In this document: piece after piece, positions 1-57,770 of the stretch
Layout of the letters: each line of letters begins with the position of its first letter
Position numbering within the stretch: position 1 is the stretch's first letter
DNA from: Harriotta raleighana
Lineage: Eukaryota
Direction of reading: 5' to 3'
DNA: 64,000 nucleotides
NCBI GenBank assembly: GCA_050575255.1
Contig: JBNZDD010013732.1
Coordinates: 10,322,801 to 10,386,800, forward strand
The notes under the pieces: generated by a model
The model's database searches: none
Seen by the model: only the letters and a program-made list of their open reading frames with translations
Told to the model about the DNA's origin: nothing
Made by a program: the position numbers and the translations under genes

Positions 1-1449
1 AAGAAGCACCTATATTGTTGTACAAATGATAAAAACACTACTTTACACGAACAGACTCTCGAATGTCTTAAATAATAGGCAAAGATAATAAAATTCGACA
101 AAATAACACCTCATTTAGAAAGTGTGAAAACATAAGATTGCCTAAAAAAAAATCCCTTAAGATTTCTGCAGTATTTCACTTTGTATTGGATTTTACATGA
201 AGCAAAATGCTTTTATTTACTATATATTTTAATGTGAAGTGTCAAGTGGGTTCATCAATTTTTGGAAAATCTGTTGAAATTCCCACGAGGAATCACTTCT
301 TGGGACACAATAAAAAGTAATTTTAAGATACAGTGTTTCTGTTTGTTTATGTACAAAGACCATATGATATTGATAAGTAATATTGACCACCGATGCTAGA
401 AATCCTAAGCCCCCGCATGGAAGCAATTTCAGTCCAATACATTTCAGTTTGTTCAAAGTCATTTCAGTCACTTTCTTTTATTGAAAATGTTCAGAATATT
501 GAATGGAACCATGAAGTTTGCCTAATTAGGCTTAATTACAAGCAAATTGTTTTTTATGTCGGGTAGCACTGAAAAAACACCAAAGGCAGAAAGTGAAAAG
601 CAGATCAACGGTCATCTGCTGCTTATCAGCTCTCACCCTTGGGATGTAATCATCCGATTTTCAAAGGCCTTAATTTTACTTAACTATTTGGAGAAACGCC
701 AAAGAAAGACCGGCGTGAACAGAGTATCATTATCGTAAATGCCACGTGGTATCAAGGATCACTAACAACATTGCGAGTTGCGTGCTAATTAGAATATCTC
801 AAATGAAGTTTCCCCTCCCTGAAAAGCCATTCACATTGCTTCAGTTCAGGAGCTGCAAAAGCATAGACTGAGCTCGGTGATGCCAGCTCATTTTCCCAAC
901 ACACAAAACTATGGGGGTGTGGGAACTGTGAGAGAGAGATAAAGATGCCAGAAGCTTGCAACTGGAGCCGCTCACAGTCATCCACTGATGGGAATCTGAC
1001 GGTTACAAGCAGTACATCAGCAGGATTGTGGAATTCCCATTTCTAAAAGTAGTACTGTAGTAACACAATCAGTATATTTGATATTGTGCATTTCATATCA
1101 GGAGGATGTTTCAAAGTGCTTTACAGGATATATTGTAAAGTGGAATGNTCCCTGAAAAGCCATTCACATTGCTTCAGTTCAGGAGGATGTTTCAAAGTGC
1201 TTTACAGGATATATTGTAAAGTGGAATGTATGTATTTTGTGGGCAATACTGTAGTAGAATGTGGGGATCCTATAAGAAGCCTGTGAGGTGCTGCCAATAA
1301 CTAACAGGATTCTTTGTTGGTAAAACTTGATAGAAAATAGTCAAAAAATAATAGAAAATAATAACATTTTCAACCTCATTTTCATAGTTGGAATAATTGT
1401 TGATAGATTAGCATCTGTGTTAATGTCTGATCTGTTGTTGTGAACCGGA

Positions 1450-2450
1450 TCCTTATGAAGGTACAAAACATTGGCTTGAAATGTTTGATATATACACTGA
1501 GAAGGAGTGGGTCACGGGCAGTAACAGAATAACTTCAAGAGAATACCACATTGGGCAGACAAGTCCATGGTGGAAGGTCATAATCTTCAGAAGGTGGTTG
1601 AGTGAATCCTGAATGGAAAATATTAGGATGTGGAGGGTCCAGCTGGCTTTTTGTATGATAGCACTCAGTCCACTCATAGCAAAATGGCTGCAAATCTTCA
1701 GTACCTGTAGACTGCATCAAGAATGTTCACTTAGATGAGGTATTGGGTTGCACTTTGGAAAATAAAAAAGGCAGCAAAAAAAACCCCCTGGATTTCCAGT
1801 CTGAACTTTTAATTCCTTAAATGAGATCTCAAATATCCATACAAGGGGGTCATTCAGTATGATGCTCACCTCAGTGATACTATTTTTTCTTTTACTTTCT
1901 CCTTTTAATTTCTGTCCATCTGGTAGTAGCCCCACAATCCCAAAGACCAAAGATCACATGATCTGCTGAAATGCTTGTTTCAGTAACTACAAGATCCCAG
2001 TTGAAAGACCCAGTATTCTCATTTGAACTGCCTTGGGTTGTCCTCCTGACATGAAAGGCGCTACACAAGTGTAATTTTGTTGTTGTTGTTGAAGACAGTT
2101 GTGGGCAGGGGCTTTGAATGTTTTTTATTCACAGTAATATTCAGTGATGAGAAATCATCGGCTTTGGAATGATAAATTTGAAAGCCAAGCAAAATTTTTC
2201 AAAGTCTCTTGCACCTGTTTACACTAATACAACATATGCTTCTTTACTTTATTGTCATAGAAACAGCTGTTTTGTTGTCTATTTGATTTCCTCCAACATT
2301 TATTTATTTTTTGTAAGTTGTTTAGAGTTTTCCTGTGACAAGGTACCATCTTTGCCTGAGGTGATCCCAGGACACTGTTGTTTAGGGAGGCACTTGAGAG
2401 GTACCTGTCCCTTTTCGACTGAATCACAATCTCTGCTTTCCCACAAGGTA
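1450..2450 (-). mobile_element. Highly decayed L1/Tx1-like LINE ORF2 remnants
   Basis: Minus-strand peptides occur in the expected order: GITSGKDG (cf. GKTPGxDG), then GIVGLLP...VSIILND...IFEISFKELK (cf. VITLLPK..PVSLL.D.KIF...LK), then a C-terminal-like segment. Very degenerate. Confidence 0.3.
2028..2091 (+). mobile_element. L2 LINE 3'-terminal stub with (TTG)n tail
   Basis: ccttgggttgtcctcctgacatgaaaggcgctacacaagtgtaattttgttgttg matches the 3' end of the RT-bearing L2 at 10538-11716. Confidence 0.85.
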
Positions 2451-2575
2451 GTTTGCTGAATAAACAAAGTAAAAATCACAGATAAAAATGCCACCATCCC
2501 ATTCTTAGCAGAACAGTGCTACCTCTCTCTGATTCTCCATCTTGTCTTGCATTATTTATTTATTTATTATCATCA

Positions 2576-3035
2576 GGTGCCAGTCTGGCTCAGCTGTTAG
2601 CACGCTTACCTCTGAGTCAGAAGCTTGTGGGTTCAAGTCCCACGTTCAGATTTCAAGCTCATAGACTTGGCTGAAACTCCAGTGAAGTGCTGATGGAGCA
2701 CCATATTGTCGGTGGCAGTGTCCTTTGGATGAGACATTAAATTGAGGTCCCATCTACCTGTTTAGCTGCACATGCATGATCCCTTGCTACTATTCAATAT
2801 GAGAAGGGAGTGTCTTGGCTAACAAACAATAAAATTGGTCATTCACTCTTGGCTGTTTGTGGAACATTGCTTTGTGGAAATTGGCAGTTGATCTAAATAC
2901 AACAATAACAACAAAATTACACTTGTATAGCACCTTTCACGTCGGGAGGATGTCACAAAGCACTGTAGCATGCAAATACATGCTCTTTGCGTGCTACAGT
3001 AAATCTATGAGACCTTTTGAAGATGCAATAAGATA
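2576..3035 (+). mobile_element. SacSINE1-like tRNA-derived Deu-domain SINE
   Basis: A box tggctcagctgttag, B box ggttcaagtcc, body ctttggatgagacattaaattgaggtccc and Deu-type gctgtttgtggaacattgctttgtggaaattggc. Interrupted by an L2 stub. Confidence 0.8.
2899..2965 (-). mobile_element. L2 3' stub inserted into SINE
   Basis: acaacaaaattacacttgtatagcacctttcacgtcgggaggatgtcacaaagcactg is the reverse complement of the L2 tail. Confidence 0.85.
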
Positions 3036-4199
3036 TCCTTGGGCCTGCACATGTGTGGATTTCCACCAGCCACTCACTTAGTGTGTGCTCACATCTCACT
3101 GTCTTTCAATGGCCAGGCAGATCGACTTTTCTCAGGGTGAATCCTATGAGCAAAATATAGTTTATTCGCTACCTTCTACTCACATGGTACAAACAATTAT
3201 AAAGGTGGTATTGGTATTTACAGGTATTTTTCAACATTGAAGAAACCTGGTGCTGAAAAATACTGTCCAGCATGGCAATTACATTTAGCTGGAAATTCCA
3301 GCTCACCAGATCGGACTCTGCCACCAATGGTCCAGCTAGTCAGGGTATTAGTGTATATACATACAATTTATTGTGGTAACATTACCTGTTCATTTTTGTT
3401 GCTTACATTTTATTCTACACCTCAAAAGATTTCACAAGCTTTTAAGTTCCAAATGTTATAGTTCTTCAGTGGTAAATATCGCCACTTACCACGAGTAAGT
3501 CTTTAAGATCAGGATGAACACAAAATAAAATTCAGTGTCCAAGTATTTTGTTTAAACTAGACTGTGCTTATTGATCTTATTATTGGCATTAACCTTACTG
3601 GAGATCTTGATTGCACTACAAAAATACAGTGAATGGGAATCAAGTCTGGTTCCAATACCAAGTTATCAATTCTAAATTGAATCCAACAAACGTCCCAAGT
3701 TTTTTCAAAAAATCTTTTAAAAAATTGCTTTTATTAATATTAAAAACACCGATAGAACTGATTGAGCAAGTCACATAGGCTAGTGAAGATATTTCAGAAA
3801 CAGCATAAGCTCTGACTAACTGCTCTCACACACAGGAAGATTTATGCAAAAGAACCAAGTAGGATTCTACAAGGTAAATCTTGATTAATTTTTTAACCAC
3901 CTTCTTTTAGTGAAACTCCCAACAGAATAATAGAAAGCTAATTCAAAACACTTGTGCTAGTATTGTAAGTAGATTCCTCAAAATGAATTAATAGCAAAAA
4001 TCTTTTTTTAAGATTTGTGGATTTTCCTTTTCTAGTATGGATGTCATCTGAACTGTGCTTATTTTACCATTTTATAATTTACTTAAACAATCCATATGTT
4101 TTGGACACTGAACAGAGAAGAAAACACAGGAAAATTTATATTGTCCATCCTCCATTATTCATATTTATCTTAACGTTGAGTGTTGGTAGGTTATTCGAA

Positions 4200-10381: not shown

Positions 10382-10537
10382 ATATGTGATCCTTGCTAGA
10401 AGTGCACTTGTCTGAGCTTTGGACAAAAGAACTCTCAAGACCTCTTTGTATTTTAAATATTTCCAAATTCCTTAAAAAGTCCTTTCTATCTGGTACTGTT
10501 ATAATTCCATATTACAGTATTTTTCCAGCAAGAATTC

Positions 10538-11716
10538 AACAACAATAAAATGACATTTATAGAGCGCCTTTCACTTTGGAAGGACGTCCTAAGGTGCTTA
10601 ACAGTTAGGTCAGGACCTGAGCGGGGGGGGGGGGGGGGGGAGGNAGGACCTGAGCGGGGGGGGGGGGGAAGAGTAGGGGCAGGGGGAAAGAAAATAGGAA
10701 AAGCTGGAGAGTTAGGAGGGGAACAGAAGGCACGGACGAAGAAGAAGGTCTTGAGACTGGCCTTGAAGGAGGAAAGGGAGGAAGCGAGACAAAGGGATTG
10801 CAGGATGGAGTTCCGGAGTGTGGGGGCAGAGAGGCTGAAAACCCGGCCACAGATGGTAGGGCGGTTCAGGGGGATGCGACATGGAGCAGGCCAGAGCCTG
10901 CTGAATGGAGGGGACAGGCAGGGTGATAAGGAGACAGCAGGTCAGAGATAGGCGGGGTCAGTCAAGGCCATGAATGGCCTTGAAAGTGAGGACGAGGATC
11001 TTGAATTCGATCCTCTGGTGGGATGGGGAGCCAGTGTAGAGGGCGAGGGTGGGAATGATGTGGTCGCGGAGCCCAGAGCGGGAGATTACGCGAGCTGCAG
11101 AGTTCTGAATAATCTGATCTTGTGAAGGGAGGAGCTGGGAAGGCCGACGAGGAGAGAGTTCCCGTAGTCGAGCCTAGATGTGATGTTCCCGTAGTAGAGC
11201 CTCCTGACGTAAAAGGCGCTCTATAAATGTAATTTTGATTGATTGAATGCGTGGATTAGTGTTTTGGCAGCATGGGGGGTGAGGTAGTGGCGGAATCTGG
11301 CAATGTTGCGGAGATGGTGGAAGGCATGGATTTGGGGGAAGAAGGACAGTTGAGGGTTGAACAAGACGGCCTAGATTCCTGACTGACTCTGAGGGGTGGA
11401 GAGTACAGCCTTGATTGCTGATGTTGCCAGCGCCCGAGGTGTGGAGGCGCTAACGTGAGCCAATCAGGAGGGCCTCTGTCTTGTTGACATTTAGTTGGAG
11501 GAAGTTGTCCCTTATCAGGAATCAATGTCGAACAGACACACATTCAAGAAAGTCAGTAGTCCTGAAATCGAGGGTGAAAGGAGAAAGGTAAAGTTGGGTG
11601 TCATCTGCATACATGTGGAAATTTACCCCATTTCTGCAGATGATGTCACCAAGGGGGAGCATGTAGAGGGTGAAGAGGAGGGGGCCAAGGACAGAGCCCT
11701 GGGGATCGCCGCATGA
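10538..11716 (-). mobile_element. L2 LINE, 5'-truncated, with RT catalytic region
   Basis: Minus strand from ~11713 reads [44 protein letters not shown], then NFLQLNVNKTEALLIG and the C-terminal region, 3' UTR and (TTG)n tail. Stops, frameshifts and a deletion are present. Confidence 0.93.
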
Positions 11717-22300: not shown

Positions 22301-23042
22301 AGCACTTCACAGAATATACAGCGAACTATATTTTGTGGGAGAAAAGGGAACCGTACCCAGAAGATGTCCTTATAGCCTGTTAGTATCCAGAACAATGGTT
22401 CATGCCTTGGGAGACCCAGTTTTGTGGAAAAGCGTAAAATGTCTGGCAATAGAGGTCAACCATAGACATTGTGGAATCAGCCAGTATTTTTTTTTAGTGA
22501 CATACACAGCAAGAATAAGCACCATTACATGTTTCTGATTATAAATTTTTAGATCCTGGAAAACAGGAACCTGGATAGTAGAAAGCTGTGTTCTGCACCT
22601 CCCTGTTGCTGTACCTTCAGTGAGTTGTGTGTGAATTGCAGGAATCATTCAACTACTGCAGCATGTTCTCAGGAGTAGATGGAAGACCACAGGAGGAGAG
22701 GCTGCAAACCAGTGAAAGGTTACCAGTTGAATAATGTCTAATCACTCATTCTTCATTTGAATAAGAGCTCACTGAGGTGTTAAGATTGAAAAAAGAATTC
22801 TGTTTACACAGAGTAAACAGTGCATATTCAGCTCAAGTCTATTGATCTGTTCAGATCTGTAAATCCAAACTGTTCATTCTCCCTGGTGTATGCACTAACC
22901 TCCGGCCTTAGCTAGAATAATGAAGTGAGCAAGCAAAAAGTCTCAGATTATAGTCTGACATAAGCACTCATGGATCAGGCAGGACTGGAGGCTTCTTACA
23001 GCAGCCTAATTGAATCCCATTTCCTTCAGATATAGCTTACAA

Positions 23043-23152
23043 GAGGCTCCTCCAATGGCTCAGTGGTTAAAGACACCACTCAGTGCGGCACTTAGTCAAA
23101 TAGACTTGGCTCAATTTCTGCTATGTGCTGATTTTGTTATTCACATCAGGGA
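23043..23152 (+). mobile_element. Family X SINE head
   Basis: gaggctcctccaatggctcagtggttaaag (A box) followed by sequence like the head at 9581. Confidence 0.5.
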
Positions 23153-23183
23153 AATGGGAGCCATTCTGTTCAGATATAAAATA

Positions 23184-23415
23184 ATAATCCTTGGATTTGA
23201 TATAATAACAACAACTTTGATTTTTATAGCCCTCCACGCCGGACGGGTCTCAGAGCGTTTAAAATATAACGCTTTATCAAATCATATCATCTAGACGTAT
23301 CAGAGTATCTCACCGAATATACTGTAATGTAAATTGACTGTTTTGTGGGCAAAATTCTGCAGCAAACTGCACACAGTAGTGTCCCACAAACAGCCATGGA
23401 TTGTGTGACCAAATG
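23184..23415 (-). mobile_element. Deu SINE 3' part interrupted by a second-family L2 stub (23207-23260)
   Basis: SINE tail ataatccttggatttgata, then acaactttgatttttatagccctccacgccggacgggtctcagagcg, then Deu body tgcacacagtagtgtcccacaaacagcc. Confidence 0.75.
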
Positions 23416-23879
23416 ATTACTGTATTTAGAAAAAATGATATACCCCCGGAAAAGCAAACTAACTAACAAGCGGGTTCCTATTTCATGCTAGATAAACAGA
23501 TGCAAGTGGAGTAAGTAAACATGCCCAACCTCTGCTTGAATGTATCCCTCTGTAATTCTAAATAACTGAAGCACATTTTAAAAATTTTGCCTCATAGGAG
23601 ATTGGTCCATAAGGTTTGAAGATAAATTAAAGGGGTAGCTTCCCAATGGATTTGTAATTCATGAGATCATTTAAAGCATGAAGTGTGAAAAAATGTTTAG
23701 ACTTGCTGAAGATAGCAAGGTGTGATGATATGCAAATATAGCCCAGCCCCATTGTAACAAGGGAGTTCAGAAGAATGGTAAGAGGAGGGTTTTAAGAAAC
23801 AATACTCTGAATAAAAAAAACACAGAAGTTTCTGGGGAAACTCAGCAAGTCAGGTAGCATCGATGGAGAAAGGAAAGTG

Positions 23880-23916
23880 AGTCAACATTTCGGATCCATG
23901 ACTCTTCGTCAGAACT
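23880..23916 (-). ncRNA. Minimal type I hammerhead ribozyme motif (Penelope-associated), copy 1
   Basis: Minus strand reads AGTT-CTGACGA-AGAGTCATGGATCC-GAAA-TG-TT-GACT. The core boxes are intact; stem II and stem III each carry a substitution. Confidence 0.7.
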
Positions 23917-24293
23917 GGGGAGTGTTCTAGAGGGAGACGTTTTTAAGGACATTAGAGGGGGTGGGTGGGGGGGTGGGGGGGGGAGAAGGCAGGACATGGA
24001 AGACAAAGAAAAAGGAGTGTGAAAACTGACGGGTTGAAAAAGTGATAACGATGTATAGAAACAAAAAGGGGTGGGGGTAAATTTCAACGAAACTGGGGAG
24101 AAGAGGTGTTTAGTGGTGACAGAACAGACAGAAGGCAGAGGGTATCTGGAGTTATGATTGTGACGGGGGAGGGGTTGCTCTTATGGTCTGAAGTGGCTGA
24201 AATCGATGTTGAGGCCAGAGGGCTGCAAGGTCTCCAGCGGATAGATGAGGTGCTGTTACCTGAGGAAAAACCTCTCTCTCTAAAACACTCCCC

Positions 24294-24330
24294 GGTTCTG
24301 ACGAAGGGCCGTGGACCCGAAACGTTGACT
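24294..24330 (+). ncRNA. Minimal type I hammerhead ribozyme motif (Penelope-associated), copy 2
   Basis: GGTT-CTGACGA-AGGGCCGTGGACCC-GAAA-CG-TT-GACT has CUGANGA and GAAA cores, a GGG/CCC stem II and palindromic AACGTT stem III. Confidence 0.8.
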
Positions 24331-24515
24331 CACTTTCCTTTCTCCATGGATGCTGCCTGACTTGCTGAGCTTCCCCAGCAACTTCTGTGTTTTTTTTCAG
24401 ATTCTCAGCATCTGCAGTATTTTGTGTTTTGTTAATACTCTGAATGACCCAGGGTGCATAAACAAGTAGCCACTCACACTCATCTCTAAACTTGCCACTG
24501 ATGTCACTTGCATGA

Positions 24516-24685
24516 ACAACAACAAAATTACATTTACAGAGAGCCCTTCACTTCGGGAGGATGCCTAAGACGCTGAACAGTCAGGGATTGGAACCTGAGC
24601 AAGGGGGATGGGTGGGGTAGGGGTGAGGGGAGGCAGAGAGGTGGGAGGGCAGCTGAAGGCACGGTCGAAAAGGGAGGAACTCGGG
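24516..24685 (-). mobile_element. L2 3' fragment
   Basis: aacaacaacaaaattacatttacagagagcccttcacttcgggaggatgcctaagacgctgaacagtc...gctgaaggcacggtcgaaaagg. Confidence 0.88.
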
Positions 24686-25232
24686 ATAGGACACGAGCTG
24701 CAGAAGCTGGCCAGGGATCGGTGAATCCACTCATGATTATTTTTGCGGTTCCCACACTCCTGGCTGAAGTCACTGAGCATTTTGAAGTACAATGCAAGAG
24801 AAGGCAATTTGGAAATTGCTTCTTCTTTTATTTATGATCTATTAAACTTTAGATAATATGTGACTTCTATTCAATTGGCAAGGAGCAGTTTAACTTGTGC
24901 TGGGCAGACAAAATGTGGCAAAGCAATGTCAATTTGCTTAATCCAATTAAAGAGAATAGAATAAACACGGACTAGCTTTGGAAGGTAGAACCCATCTCCT
25001 GCTTACTAATAATAAGTGGATGGAAAAGAGCACACAACGCCTTTTTAAAAAATCATTCCAGTTCAAGGGGAGGAAATCTAATATTGTCAAGTATCATTCA
25101 CTGAATGATGGCAATCAAATGCTGGTGCATATTGTTTGCAACAAATCCTTGGTGACAGCCTTTCATTTGTTTTTGGAGTCTAATGTTTCGTTCAAAGTGA
25201 TTTACTTTTGCTTTAATATATGTGCATACTAT

Positions 25233-25538
25233 GGAACCTGTAGCTCAGTGGTTAGAACACTTGCCTTACAAGCAAGAGACCTGGGTTCAATTCCAGGTAG
25301 GTCAGGGTGAAACCCTGGGCAAGTTTCCTTACTCCACACGCCAAACAATAATCTTTCAAAAAATATATATATATTGGTCATTTTAATCCACGACTGTTTG
25401 TGGGACACTGCTGTGCGCAATTAGCTGCCATATTTCGGCCACAAATATAGTCAACTCATTTTGCAGTATATTTAGTGAAGCTCTTTGAGACGTCTAGAAG
25501 ATGTGAAAAGCGTTATATCAAATGCAAGGATTATTATT
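25233..25538 (+). mobile_element. Full-length tRNA-derived Deu SINE
   Basis: cctgtagctcagtggttagaacac (A box), gggttcaattcc (B box), Deu body and tail aaatgcaaggattattatt. Confidence 0.92.
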
Positions 25539-41480: not shown

Positions 41481-41864
41481 ACTAGAAACTGACACTTTAA
41501 GGAAAAGCTGGATGCTTTTGGTGCGAGGGGAATTGCTTCAGCAGAATTATCATGAGCAAGGACTGAATGATATGCATCCACTGTTCTGGAAGAATTCAAA
41601 AAGTGTGACTGCATTTCCGGTGAAACAATTTAAAAATGCTTAATTCGGTTAGGTTCCGTGAAAACTTTTATAAATCCTTCTGGAAAGATATTGAATAATC
41701 TTACACCACACGCGTTGGTCAAAAGCATATTTCTGCCAAACATGAAAACAAATTGACCTTGTCCAAATGTTCATCATAATTGCCAATAGTCATCTTCTCC
41801 ACATGCTCACTTTGATCTGCATCAGTACATGAGGCATATCAGTACTATGCCACTACCTCACTCT

Positions 41865-42472
41865 TCAGGCCACTGAAACTCTCATTCATGCCTTCATCAC
41901 ATCCAGGCTCGACTATGCTAATGTTGGTTGGCCTTCCCAATTCTTCCCTCCATTGGCTGCAGATAATCCAGAACTCTGCGGCCCCTGTCCTGTACATCTC
42001 CAAGCTCTGTAACCCCATCACCCCGACTCCATTGACCCCCATCATCCAGAGGATTCAATTCAATATCTTGGTCCTCACCTTCAAAGCCCTCCATGGCCTC
42101 ACCCTACCCTAACTCCGCGACCTCCTAATACCCTAGCAATCCTTCTGGTCAGCAGGCTCTGGCTTGTTCCATGTCCCCTGACCCACCTGCCCCACCACTG
42201 GCGGACAAGCCTTCAAATACTCTTCCTGCATCTTCTGGAACTCCATTCTGTAGACTTCTGTCTTGTCCCCTCTCTTGCATCCTTCAAGACCCATTTCAAA
42301 ACCCCCTCTACGACAGTGATCTTGGTCACCCACCTTCCACACCTCCCTATACCCTCCCGGATCCTGATTCCAAGCTTGAGTCTGAAACATTGAATTGTTC
42401 GGTGCCCTGGGATGTCCACCCGACATGAAAGGCACTATACAAGTGTAATTTTGTTGTTATTGTTGTTGTTGA
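41865..42472 (+). mobile_element. L2 3' fragment
   Basis: ETLIHAFITSRLDYAN and GLPNSSLHWLQIIQNSAA...IQRIQFNILVLTFKALHGL, then 3' UTR and TTG tail. Confidence 0.92.
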
Positions 42473-42740
42473 TGTTATCATTGTTGAACTCCCTTCCGTA
42501 ACTCCTAAATATCATTCTAATCTTTTGGTTAACTCTACAATTAAATAAATGTGGACATCTGAATCTTAAGAAAATGACCGAAGCATTTTCAATAGTACCA
42601 GAATAGACATGGGTTTGAATAAAGACTTTTCAAAAACAACACAAACCTGATGTTTTTGTAAACCATTTTTTTTTAAGTAACTTTTTCCTGTTCTGAATTA
42701 ATGTCACAGGAAAAAGTACAGATGCAGGTCCATTTCGTGG

Positions 42741-52822: not shown

Positions 52823-53375
52823 TAACAAAAACAGCAACTTGTATTTATGTAGCACCCTCCAAGATTCATATTTGAAATAGTGCTTTCGCTTCTGAGAATT
52901 TATGCATTTGCATAATTCTAGAAAACCTTTAGAGGTGAAGGGGGTTGATGGAGGGAGTTCCAAAGTTTCAGGGCGCAATGGTTGAAAGCATGGCAGGCAA
53001 TGATGGAGCGGAGGTTTCGGGGGATATGGAGGAGGCTGGACCCAGTAGAGCGGAGGCAGTGGGTACTGTTGTAAGGGGAGAGGTTAGAAAGTTAACGGGG
53101 GTGGGGTGCGTGGGGGCTGAGGTGTGGAGGGATTTCAATACAAGAGTGAGGATATTGAAGTCGATCCTCTCTGTGACAGGGAGCCAGTGGAGTTTGGCAA
53201 GGACTTGGGTAATCGGGGTACAAAGTTTGGTGCTAGTGAGAATGTGGGCGGCGGAGTTTTGAATGAGTTGCATTTTGTGAATGGTGGAGTAGAGGAGGCC
53301 TGCGAGGAGGGCATTGCAGTATTACAGCTGAAAGAAGACAAAGGCATGGACCAGGGTTTGGGTAGCTGTTGGGAT
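52823..53375 (-). mobile_element. L2 3' fragment (second subfamily)
   Basis: QLIQNSAAHILT...ITQVLAKLHWLPVTERIDFNILTLVLKSLH. The tail is at 52823-52860 and the 3' UTR is replaced by a 54-bp foreign segment. Confidence 0.88.
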
Positions 53376-53566
53376 GAGTTATTGACAGAGAAACTAGCCA
53401 GAGAATAGGAATAGAAGAGAAAATTGTTATTTCATCATGACAATGTCTTCTTTCTCAGGAAACAAAAGAGTCCGTAGAGCCTCTAAACATCTGGTGCCAC
53501 GTGCAGCCACTTCCTCTTTGATGCACAGTTATTACTTGGGTATGAGATAGAAATTCATATCTGAAA

Positions 53567-56589: not shown

Positions 56590-57012
56590 GGTCAGCTTGG
56601 TTCAGTGATAGCATTCTTGCCTCAAAGTCAGAAGGTTGTAGGTTCAAATGTCACATCGGGACATCAACTCATAGTCAATACAGGCTTGGGGTTGCGTTGC
56701 ATTGTTGGAGTTGCTGTTTTTTAGATAAAATGTTAAACTGAGGTCCTGTCTGCCTGTTCAGGTCAATGTTAAAGATCCCATGGCAAGTATTTGAAAAGAG
56801 AATGGAGTTCTCCCGATGTCCTAGAAACAATATCCCAAATAAAATTCTCCATTTGTTTAACATAACTTTCAGCAAGTTGTTTGGAGGACATTCTAGTGCA
56901 CAATTGTACTGACGCGTTTGCCTACAAATACACAGTCATTCCATTTCACAGTAAAAGCTGTGAAGCTCTTCGAGACATCCTTCTGATATGATAAGACACA
57001 ATACAAATACTG
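56590..57012 (+). mobile_element. SacSINE1-like SINE
   Basis: ggtcagcttggttcagtgatagcattcttgcctcaaagtcagaaggttgtaggttcaaat, taaactgaggtcctgtctgcc, aaagatcccatggca and tail. Confidence 0.85.
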
Positions 57013-57066
57013 TACAAGCATTATAATTAGAATGAATAGGAGATAGCAAACATAAAAACCCTGGAG

Positions 57067-57770
57067 AACAAACAAACAAATTACACTTATATAGCGCATT
57101 TCTTGTCAGGAGGACATCCCAAGGCACTGGACATCAGGGATCTGAGCTGCTGGTTGGGGTCTGGAGGGTTAGAGGGTAGGAGGAGGCATGATCAAAGAAG
57201 AGTGGTCTTAAGAAGGATCTTGAAGGAGGCAAGNGACATCAGGGATCTGAGCTGCTGGTTGGGGTCTGGAGGGTTAGAGGGTAGGAGGGTAGGGGTAGGC
57301 ATGATCAAAGAAGAGTGGTCTTAAGAAGGATCTTGAAGGAGGCAAGGGACGGATGGAGTTCCAGAGGGTGGGGACAGAGTGGTTGAAGCTCACCTGCCAA
57401 CGGTGGGGTGGGAGAGCCAGAGGATTGAAGCAGGACAGAGCCCACTGAGTGAAGGGAGCAGGCAGGTTTGTGGGGGATTAGGAGGTCGCAGAGGTAGAGG
57501 GGAGCAATCATGGAGGGCTTTGAAAGTGAGAAACTGTATCCTCTGTGTGATGGGAAGCCAGTTGAGTTGGCCAAGGATCGGTGTGATAGACTCACAGAGC
57601 CTGGTGCAGGAGAGGACACAGGCTGCAGAGTTCTGGATGATCTGCAGCCTATGGAGGAAGGAATTGGGGAGGCTGACAAGCAGGGAGTTTCCACAATGGA
57701 GCCTGGATGTTATGAATGCATGTCTAAGGGTCTCAGCGGCCTGCATTGTGAGACTGTGAGGCTGTGGGCA
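57067..57770 (-). mobile_element. L2 3' fragment (contains an assembly duplication at N57234)
   Basis: AAETLRHAFITSRLHCGNSLLVSLPNSFLHRLQIIQNSAACVL...LNWLPITQRIQF. Confidence 0.92.

What the first reader, a model, noticed from the sequence alone, without database searches (positions are those of the whole stretch)
23801..24445. Penelope-like insertion carrying two oppositely oriented minimal hammerhead ribozymes
Seen: a 12-bp direct repeat (AATACTCTGAAT) flanks an element made of a GIY-YIG C-terminus and 3' UTR on the minus strand plus an inverted copy of its own terminus. The inverted copy extends about 36 nt further. Each arm has CTGACGA-stem II-GAAA-YG-TT closed by a short stem I. Established: Penelope-like elements carry minimal hammerheads whose palindromic stem III implies dimeric folding, and they insert with inverted truncated pseudo-LTRs and a 30-40 nt tail. 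Inference: a host transcript crossing in either direction would contain one hammerhead motif, and the ~130 bp arms could fold into dsRNA that masks it. The predicted cleavage triplet is GUU (after 24326), less common than GUC.
Basis: partly seen in the sequence, partly recalled or inferred. Interest (0 to 1): 0.72.

Follow-up and report, generated by a model that had tools for sequence, protein, structure and literature searches.

The report
Decaying back-to-back Penelope retrotransposon stub
This is an ordinary, broken, mirror-image insertion of a common jumping gene whose two small self-cutting RNA motifs are predicted to misfold, although its thousands of sister copies start at one fixed spot and so likely record how this kind of element copies its uncut RNA.

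Summary
A 621-bp insert (23813-24433) lies between two exact 12-bp repeats, and a related organism has the empty site with one copy. It is a 5'-truncated Penelope-like element (RT plus GIY-YIG family, Neptune/Nematis-type linker) joined head-to-head to an inverted terminus with a 36-nt tail. That is the published anatomy. Both arms keep the minimal-hammerhead core, but each has a broken stem II pair and is predicted not to fold, unlike majority-type sister copies. Across copies the core decays at the background rate (9/337 vs 53/1609) with no covariation. GUU is the family norm, not an oddity. No host gene or RNA run was identified, so the host-regulation idea is untested and unlikely. The family-level footprint is more useful. 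All 27 classifiable inverted pairs have one short and one tailed end. 1272 vs 962 copies begin at the hammerhead's 5' edge, with a surplus non-family G. Only 120 vs 4417 begin near the cleavage site. This fits copying of uncleaved, probably capped RNA from two internal start sites. Verdict: new member of a known kind; interest 0.27.

The parts
23801..23812 (+). Left copy of the 12-bp target-site duplication
   Evidence: single copy at the empty site in run X10
23813..23944 (-). Left pLTR arm, ending at the family's short 3' end (no tail)
   Evidence: 9 of 132 differences from the family majority
23880..23916 (-). Minimal type I hammerhead motif, core intact, stem II pair 2 broken, stem III palindrome decayed; predicted cut between 23884 and 23883
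23945..24183 (-). Stop codon and 3' untranslated region of the element
   Evidence: 88-89% identity over 23813-24257 to L047 and L057
24184..24257 (-). Last 24 codons of the RT/GIY-YIG ORF; 5' truncation point at 24257
24258..24265 (.). 8-nt junction between the two head-to-head halves, origin not resolved
24266..24397 (+). Right pLTR arm (inverted, 5'-truncated copy)
   Evidence: 4 of 132 differences from the family majority
24293..24297 (+). Position equivalent to the family's 5' boundary hot spot (inferred RNA 5' end); this copy extends past it
24294..24330 (+). Minimal type I hammerhead motif, core intact, stem II pair 4 broken (24309); predicted cut after 24326 (GUU)
24398..24433 (+). 36-nt tail; in longer copies it runs on into the ORF 5' region
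24434..24445 (+). Right copy of the 12-bp target-site duplication

Best explanation
This is a 621-bp, 5'-truncated, head-to-head insertion of a high-copy Penelope-like retrotransposon between a 12-bp target duplication, and its two hammerhead motifs are likely inert passengers that are predicted to misfold. Inferred mechanism of origin: the element's GIY-YIG nuclease cut both strands 12 nt apart. Its RT then primed one DNA end at the inner start site (short end, 23813) and the other at the outer start site 36 nt further on (tail end, 24433), both on uncleaved RNA. The two cDNAs stopped after 445 and 168 nt and were joined at 24258-24265. Shown here: anatomy, family membership, empty site, and independent decay of the arms. 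Predicted: misfolding of both motifs and the long hairpin. Inferred: the two-site priming, the use of uncleaved RNA, and the lack of function.
For: Family size: 1758 first-look candidates; 2421 hammerhead-pattern matches vs 14 for the reversed control. Longer copies carry RT motifs, a C-X4-C-X2-C linker and the YIG motif, with weak Pfam RVT_1 (E 0.0028) and GIY-YIG (E 0.097) hits. Empty site in organism C. All 13 arm-arm differences are private to one arm (4 right, 9 left) relative to the family majority. 27 of 27 inverted pairs with both ends classifiable are short+tail, of 39 rows examined; 15 of the 27 have a 10-16 bp duplication. Core non-CpG positions change at 9/337 vs background 53/1609 (Fisher p=0.73), core CpG positions at 16/75; 19 of 38 unselected arms keep the core, 11 keep core plus stem II. 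Stem II probability is about 0 for both window arms vs 0.75-0.99 for three majority-type copies (also L061). Copies starting near the cut site are rare, 120 vs 4417. PMC11167929 reports two internal RT start sites bounding the tail, cleavage and extension of both strands, and uncleaved RNA as the dominant substrate in vitro.
Against: Both window arms keep all 11 core positions; each arm alone has about even odds of that (19 of 38 do). Folding is a thermodynamic prediction, and PMC11167929 shows the anole motif cuts only with the element's protein, which could rescue imperfect folds. Pfam hits are below curated cut-offs and no PDB relative was found. The empty site rests on one contig in one run. 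9 of the 27 pairs came from loci picked for having a tail, one row is a cross-pair of a local duplication, and about three lack a flush duplication. PMC3846280 proposes self-priming on an antisense template as another route to head-to-head repeats.
Confidence: 0.9

Rival explanations
1. The insertion has been co-opted: a host transcript crossing it is cut by one hammerhead, or protected when the arms pair.
For: Both cores are intact; the 124-bp hairpin is predicted on either strand.
Against: Both motifs have a broken stem II pair and are predicted to misfold on their own. The arms diverge from the family majority by 3-7%, like unselected copies (mean 5.5%). The insert is absent in organism C. 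No Pfam-recognisable exon among 436 frames of 42 aa or more (weak test). Minimal hammerheads were inactive as monomers in PMC4209133.
Confidence: 0.03
2. The mirror half was made by fold-back or self-priming of one nascent strand (or an antisense template), not by priming both cut DNA ends.
For: Proposed for head-to-head Penelope repeats in PMC3846280 (passage read). In several inverted pairs of divergent subfamilies the two arms share derived letters, which fits one template.
Against: A fold-back copy of the short-ended arm could not supply the 36-nt tail. In different loci either arm can be the long one. There is no palindrome at this junction. Shared letters equally fit two cDNAs from one master element.
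Confidence: 0.12
3. The fixed 5' boundary of sister copies is a splice acceptor or a structure-caused RT stop rather than a transcription start.
For: The site follows a pyrimidine tract and an AG. In Drosophila virilis Penelope the intron ends at the 5' end of helix I (PMC4209133).
Against: Sequence upstream of the boundary is heterogeneous (agreement 0.35-0.38) or is the target duplication itself. In 13 tandem junctions into the boundary region, the ORF-side breakpoints vary and 12 are not followed by GT. There is a surplus of G just 5' of the boundary A, 187 vs 104 A/T, about 70 expected.
Confidence: 0.2
4. The 621-bp unit is itself a self-propagating non-autonomous element (retrozyme- or MITE-like).
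For: It has long terminal inverted repeats and a target duplication. Non-LTR retrozymes derive from pLTRs (10.64898/2026.07.22.740005).
Against: No other locus among 58 examined shares this junction. Spans of inverted pairs range from 132 to 1744 bp with different junctions. It is not a tandem array.
Confidence: 0.02

Closest known systems
Endonuclease-positive Penelope-like elements with an inverted 5'-truncated copy, one-sided 30-40 bp tail and target duplication (PMC8557442 Fig. 2 legend; Adineta Pen2a, PMC3846280)
   Same: Head-to-head arms, tail on one end only (36 nt), 12-bp duplication with a verified empty site, RT followed by C-terminal GIY-YIG in longer copies.
   Different: Nothing structural; this copy keeps only 24 codons of the ORF.
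Neptune/Nematis clades (PMC8557442)
   Same: C-X4-C-X2-C linker motif upstream of the YIG motif in L047, L048 and partly L057.
   Different: Neptune vs Nematis was not separated; no tree was built.
Minimal type I hammerheads of metazoan PLE pLTRs (PMC4209133)
   Same: Core boxes, extra base between positions 9 and 10.1, G10.1-C11.1 pair, palindromic 15.2-16.2, short stem I; opposite-strand pairs 100-700 bp apart are already described there.
   Different: Stem II is 5 bp (7-8 bp in the Schistosoma families); the triplet is GUU; both copies here have a broken stem II pair.
Poseidon element of the green anole, PAc (PMC11167929)
   Same: Tail bounded by two fixed ends; tail runs on into the ORF 5' region; no sign of RNA or copies ending at the cut site.
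   Different: Different clade. The pile-up of copy 5' ends at the hammerhead's 5' edge with a surplus G is not mentioned in the parts I read (their Fig. S2 was not visible).
Non-LTR retrozymes (10.64898/2026.07.22.740005; PMC7229834 seen as listing only)
   Same: Type I hammerhead related to pLTRs.
   Different: Retrozymes are tandem direct arrays; this is a single inverted pair with ORF remnant.

Membership tests
EN+ Penelope-like element | Single ORF with RT followed by C-terminal GIY-YIG endonuclease | tested here: met
   Motifs in broken longer copies L047, L051, L057, L156; Pfam RVT_1 E 0.0028 and GIY-YIG E 0.097, both below cut-off; window peptide 75-87% identical to their C-termini.
EN+ Penelope-like element | pLTR in direct or inverted arrangement, with hammerhead | tested here: met
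   tandem forms in L191, L192, L203.
EN+ Penelope-like element | 30-40 bp tail at one end, overlapping the 5' region of the ORF unit | tested here: met
   36 nt; continues into ORF-proximal sequence in L156 and 29 further loci.
EN+ Penelope-like element | Target-site duplication made on insertion | tested here: met
   12 bp; empty site in run X10.
EN+ Penelope-like element | RT groups with PLE/telomerase RTs in a phylogeny | not tested
   No reference RT set was at hand; no tree built.
Neptune/Nematis clade | CX2-5CxxC linker between RT and endonuclease | tested here: met
   Read by eye in translations of L047 and L048, decayed in L057; definition from PMC8557442.
Minimal type I hammerhead | Conserved core C3 U4 G5 A6 G8 A9 G12 A13 A14 A15.1 U16.1 and NUH triplet | tested here: met
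   All 11 positions intact in both arms; H17 = U.
Minimal type I hammerhead | Stems I and II form | tested here: not met
   Met for majority-type copies (stem II probability 0.75-0.99) but about 0 for both window arms; prediction only.
Minimal type I hammerhead | Palindromic 15.2-16.2 allowing a dimer helix III | tested here: inconclusive
   Right arm perfect (duplex -3.5 kcal/mol), left arm decayed (+0.8); the two motifs are on opposite strands.
Minimal type I hammerhead | Compensatory changes in stems | tested here: not met
   Stem II over 147 arms: 7 cells with a change on both sides vs 64 broken pairs. Expected for dead copies of few masters, so weak evidence against the fold itself.
Rfam hammerhead families | Covariance-model hit | tested here: not met
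   No hammerhead among 5 matches at E<=10 in 23000-25500.
Minimal type I hammerhead | Site-specific self-cleavage | not testable with these tools
   Needs an in vitro assay or RNA ends.
Non-LTR retrozyme | Tandem direct repeats each with a hammerhead | tested here: not met
   Single inverted pair.

The most novel reading that the evidence does not exclude
The family is an in vivo record of the Penelope cycle. The element's capped RNA starts at the first base of the hammerhead. RT primes at two fixed sites about 105 and 140 nt downstream, one per cut DNA strand, on uncleaved RNA. When it primes on the upstream pLTR it runs off the cap (leaving a surplus G), like a strong-stop product. Most of the thousands of 'solo' minimal hammerheads in this genome would then be run-off copies, and cleavage 33 nt from the cap would act as a decapping or off-switch step rather than a step needed for insertion.
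Probability: 0.45. Interest if true: 0.55.

Novelty: new member of a known kind. Interest (0 to 1): 0.27.

Why it matters
The locus itself matters little: it is one of thousands of dead copies with a published anatomy. The family statistics would matter to people working on Penelope-like elements, whose insertion mechanism and hammerhead role are still open. They give genome-scale support for the in vitro finding that uncleaved RNA and two internal start sites are used. They also name one base position at which a capped 5' end should be found, which a single RACE or CAGE experiment can test.

Tried and rejected
Rfam at E<=10: no hammerhead. Sequencing runs: no RNA holder listed, which is no evidence on expression, so RNA ends and A-to-I editing could not be examined. 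Laying contigs on 22800-25200 was swamped by repeat copies and did not show the empty site; a narrower lay did, for X10 only. X5 and X2 gave no contig on the left flank, and the 2% sample of X11 reads gave none bridging the left boundary, so presence or polymorphism in other individuals and in organism B is unknown. Host gene search: 436 of 436 repeat-poor frames of 42 aa or more scanned against Pfam gave one sub-cut-off bacterial hit, treated as chance; short exons and a large intron would be missed. Idea that GUU arose by CpG decay of GUC in this copy: rejected, GUU is the majority; a GUC pattern gave 51 matches vs 41 control. Idea that copies pile up at the cleavage site: rejected; no third control position was counted. 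Idea that ORF-to-pLTR junctions are spliced: rejected. PDB sequence search with the endonuclease piece found nothing; no atlas look-alikes were obtained. The bacterial promoter/terminator scan is not applicable and was ignored. Literature searches and findings look-ups turned up no description of the 5'-edge pile-up with surplus G; the library lacks most subscription papers and repeat-database entries, and one search shows earlier AI notes on a shared stop point.

Full report
Observation. The sequence holds an exact 12-bp direct repeat at 23801-23812 and 24434-24445 and an inverted repeat of 132 nt at 23813-23944 and 24266-24397, matching at 119 positions. The 12-mer occurs twice in the window; the chance of an exact match at one given place is about 2e-7. 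One contig of run X10 (organism C, depth 25) follows the left flank over 23696-23812 with 12 other letters and then continues with 30 letters that match 24446-24475 at 28 positions. That is an empty site with a single copy of the repeat, so the repeat was made by the insertion and the insertion is likely younger than the split from that organism. A scan for CTGANGA...GAAA finds the two motifs at 24298-24322 (+) and 23912-23888 (-), plus three unrelated loose matches elsewhere in the window. Rfam has no hammerhead match at E<=10.

Identity. The right arm has 1758 first-look candidates in the 1.1-Gb genome, the body 1367, and a hammerhead pattern 2421 matches against 14 for its reversed control. 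The minus strand of the window matches L047 and L057 at 88-89% from 23813 to 24257, where it is truncated; the last 24 codons match their ORF ends at 75% and 87%. Upstream these broken copies read as RT, a C-X4-C-X2-C linker and a YIG/CCHH-type endonuclease (read by eye). Pfam gives RVT_1 E 0.0028 and GIY-YIG E 0.097, both under the curated cut-offs; 5 of 9 pieces had any hit, one of them unrelated. By the definition in PMC8557442 (passages) the linker marks the Neptune/Nematis clades; no tree was built. In L156 the tail continues into ORF-proximal sequence and on to the RT, so the tail end is internal to the element's RNA, as in PMC11167929 and PMC3846280. The anatomy (inverted truncated copy, one-sided 30-40 bp tail, target duplication, hammerhead in the pLTR) is the published one (PMC8557442 Fig. 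2 legend; PMC3846280 passages). PMC4209133 (parts 1-2 of 4 read) already notes opposite-strand minimal hammerheads 100-700 bp apart. A word look-up returns 674 earlier AI notes on this theme in at least 42 genomes; these are leads, not support.

State of the two hammerheads. Against the per-column majority of 147 other arms, the right arm differs at 5 of 168 positions and the left at 9 of 132. The 13 arm-arm differences are all private to one arm, which fits identical arms at insertion and independent decay since. Both keep all 11 core positions and GUU. Each has one broken pair in the 5-bp stem II, and the left arm has lost the stem III palindrome. Predicted stem II probability is about 0 for both, at three context lengths, against 0.75-0.99 for L003, L008 and L026 and about 1 for L061. 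The two motifs lie on opposite strands, so one transcript carries one motif and cannot make the dimer in cis. PMC4209133 found no cleavage for a single minimal motif and low cleavage for multimers; PMC11167929 (parts 1-2 of 4 read; supplement text searched without hits, figures not visible) found cleavage only with protein.

Selection. In 38 arms not picked by the hammerhead (still found by BLAST, so biased towards similarity), non-CpG core positions change at 9 of 337, background at 53 of 1609 (p=0.73), non-CpG stem positions at 31 of 590 (slightly above background, p=0.04), and core CpG positions at 16 of 75. 19 of 38 keep the core, 11 keep core and stem II, 4 keep everything. Over all 147 arms stem II shows 7 cells changed on both sides against 64 broken pairs. 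So the motif is conserved in the family majority but is not maintained after insertion. GUU is the norm: 98 of the first 100 listed matches and 37 of 38 unselected arms.

Host context. 436 repeat-poor reading frames of 42 aa or more gave no credible Pfam hit. The window may be intergenic or inside a large intron; I cannot tell.

Family footprint, 3' ends. Of 39 inverted-pair rows, 27 have both ends classifiable and all 27 are short plus tail; none is tail/tail or short/short; 15 have a 10-16 bp duplication. Nine of the 27 come from loci picked for a tail, one is a cross-pair of a local duplication and a few are doubtful, but the other 18 show the same rule. Either arm can be the long one. This fits the two RT start sites and two-strand cleavage seen in vitro in PMC11167929; the assignment of one site to each cut strand is my inference.

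Family footprint, 5' ends. In fetched loci 35 of 170 arms begin at the equivalent of 24294-24297, the 5' edge of stem I (many of these loci were picked by the motif). Loose ends pile up before 24295 in all four runs laid, with unrelated upstream sequence (89, 67, 235, 200 contigs). Genome-wide, 1272 motif copies lack all three family C's just upstream and 962 have them. The same test at the predicted cut site gives 120 vs 4417. No third position was counted. Among 28 distinct loci with the ORF-proximal region, 6 of 18 upstream pLTR pieces and 7 of 19 downstream ones start at 24294-24297. The ORF-side breakpoints of such junctions vary and are mostly not splice donors. Just 5' of the boundary A, G is found 187 times and A or T 104 times, with about 70 G expected; most listed cases read TG or TTG there, which I cannot fully explain. 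The boundary context fits the initiator consensus (recalled, not from a call), and an extra G from copying the cap is recalled from LINE work. The simplest reading is that the RNA begins there, capped, and RT runs off it; a splice acceptor or an RT stop are rivals. D. virilis Penelope has an internal promoter with a start 46 bp before its intron (PMC2377424, passages), so the arrangement there differs. I did not find this pile-up described in searches; earlier AI notes in other genomes mention a shared stop point. The preprint 10.64898/2026.07.22.740005 (part 1 of 5 and passages; supplements not seen) treats tandem retrozymes, which this is not.

Verdict. An ordinary dead copy of a known kind of element. 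The regulatory reading has little support. The family-level end statistics are a modest, testable addition. Interest 0.27.

Noticed in passing
window 23877-23882 and 24381-24400 (+): The antisense of the left arm reads as a consensus-like splice donor and the right arm ends in a pyrimidine tract plus AG, so a + strand transcript could in principle splice out 23877-24400 with both motifs.
   Followed up: no
window 25234-25304, with 23342-23529 and 25307-25445: tRNA-like SINE head (Rfam tRNA 45 bits) and an inverted pair of an abundant repeat about 2 kb apart that brackets the element.
   Followed up: no
L184, L189, L194, L195, L208, L210: Tandem inserts in which 125-600 nt of the ORF-proximal region is joined straight to the hammerhead's 5' edge, as if RT ran off the RNA end and jumped to a new internal point.
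   Followed up: partly
matches: Most of the 100 listed copies with a surplus G carry T or TT before it; cap copying plus untemplated A's, or a distinct master, are possible.
   Followed up: partly
L156 (G000:C13615), oriented 96-3331: Near full-length, broken copy showing tail, ORF-proximal region and RT in one piece, with a short inverted arm.
   Followed up: partly
L064, L094, L099, L103, L109, L111, L112: Very short fold-back inserts (about 180-300 bp) of divergent subfamilies; the two arms share derived letters.
   Followed up: partly
L152 822-5644; L186-L188; L076: Near-identical local duplications (2411 bp at 99.9% in L152; a triplicate in L186-L188), either recent tandem duplications or assembly artefacts.
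   Followed up: no
window 10526-11704, 41832-42480, 52932-53391, 56676-57758: Repeated, broken reading frames that look like LINE RT C-terminal fragments (family resemblance recalled, not tested).
   Followed up: no
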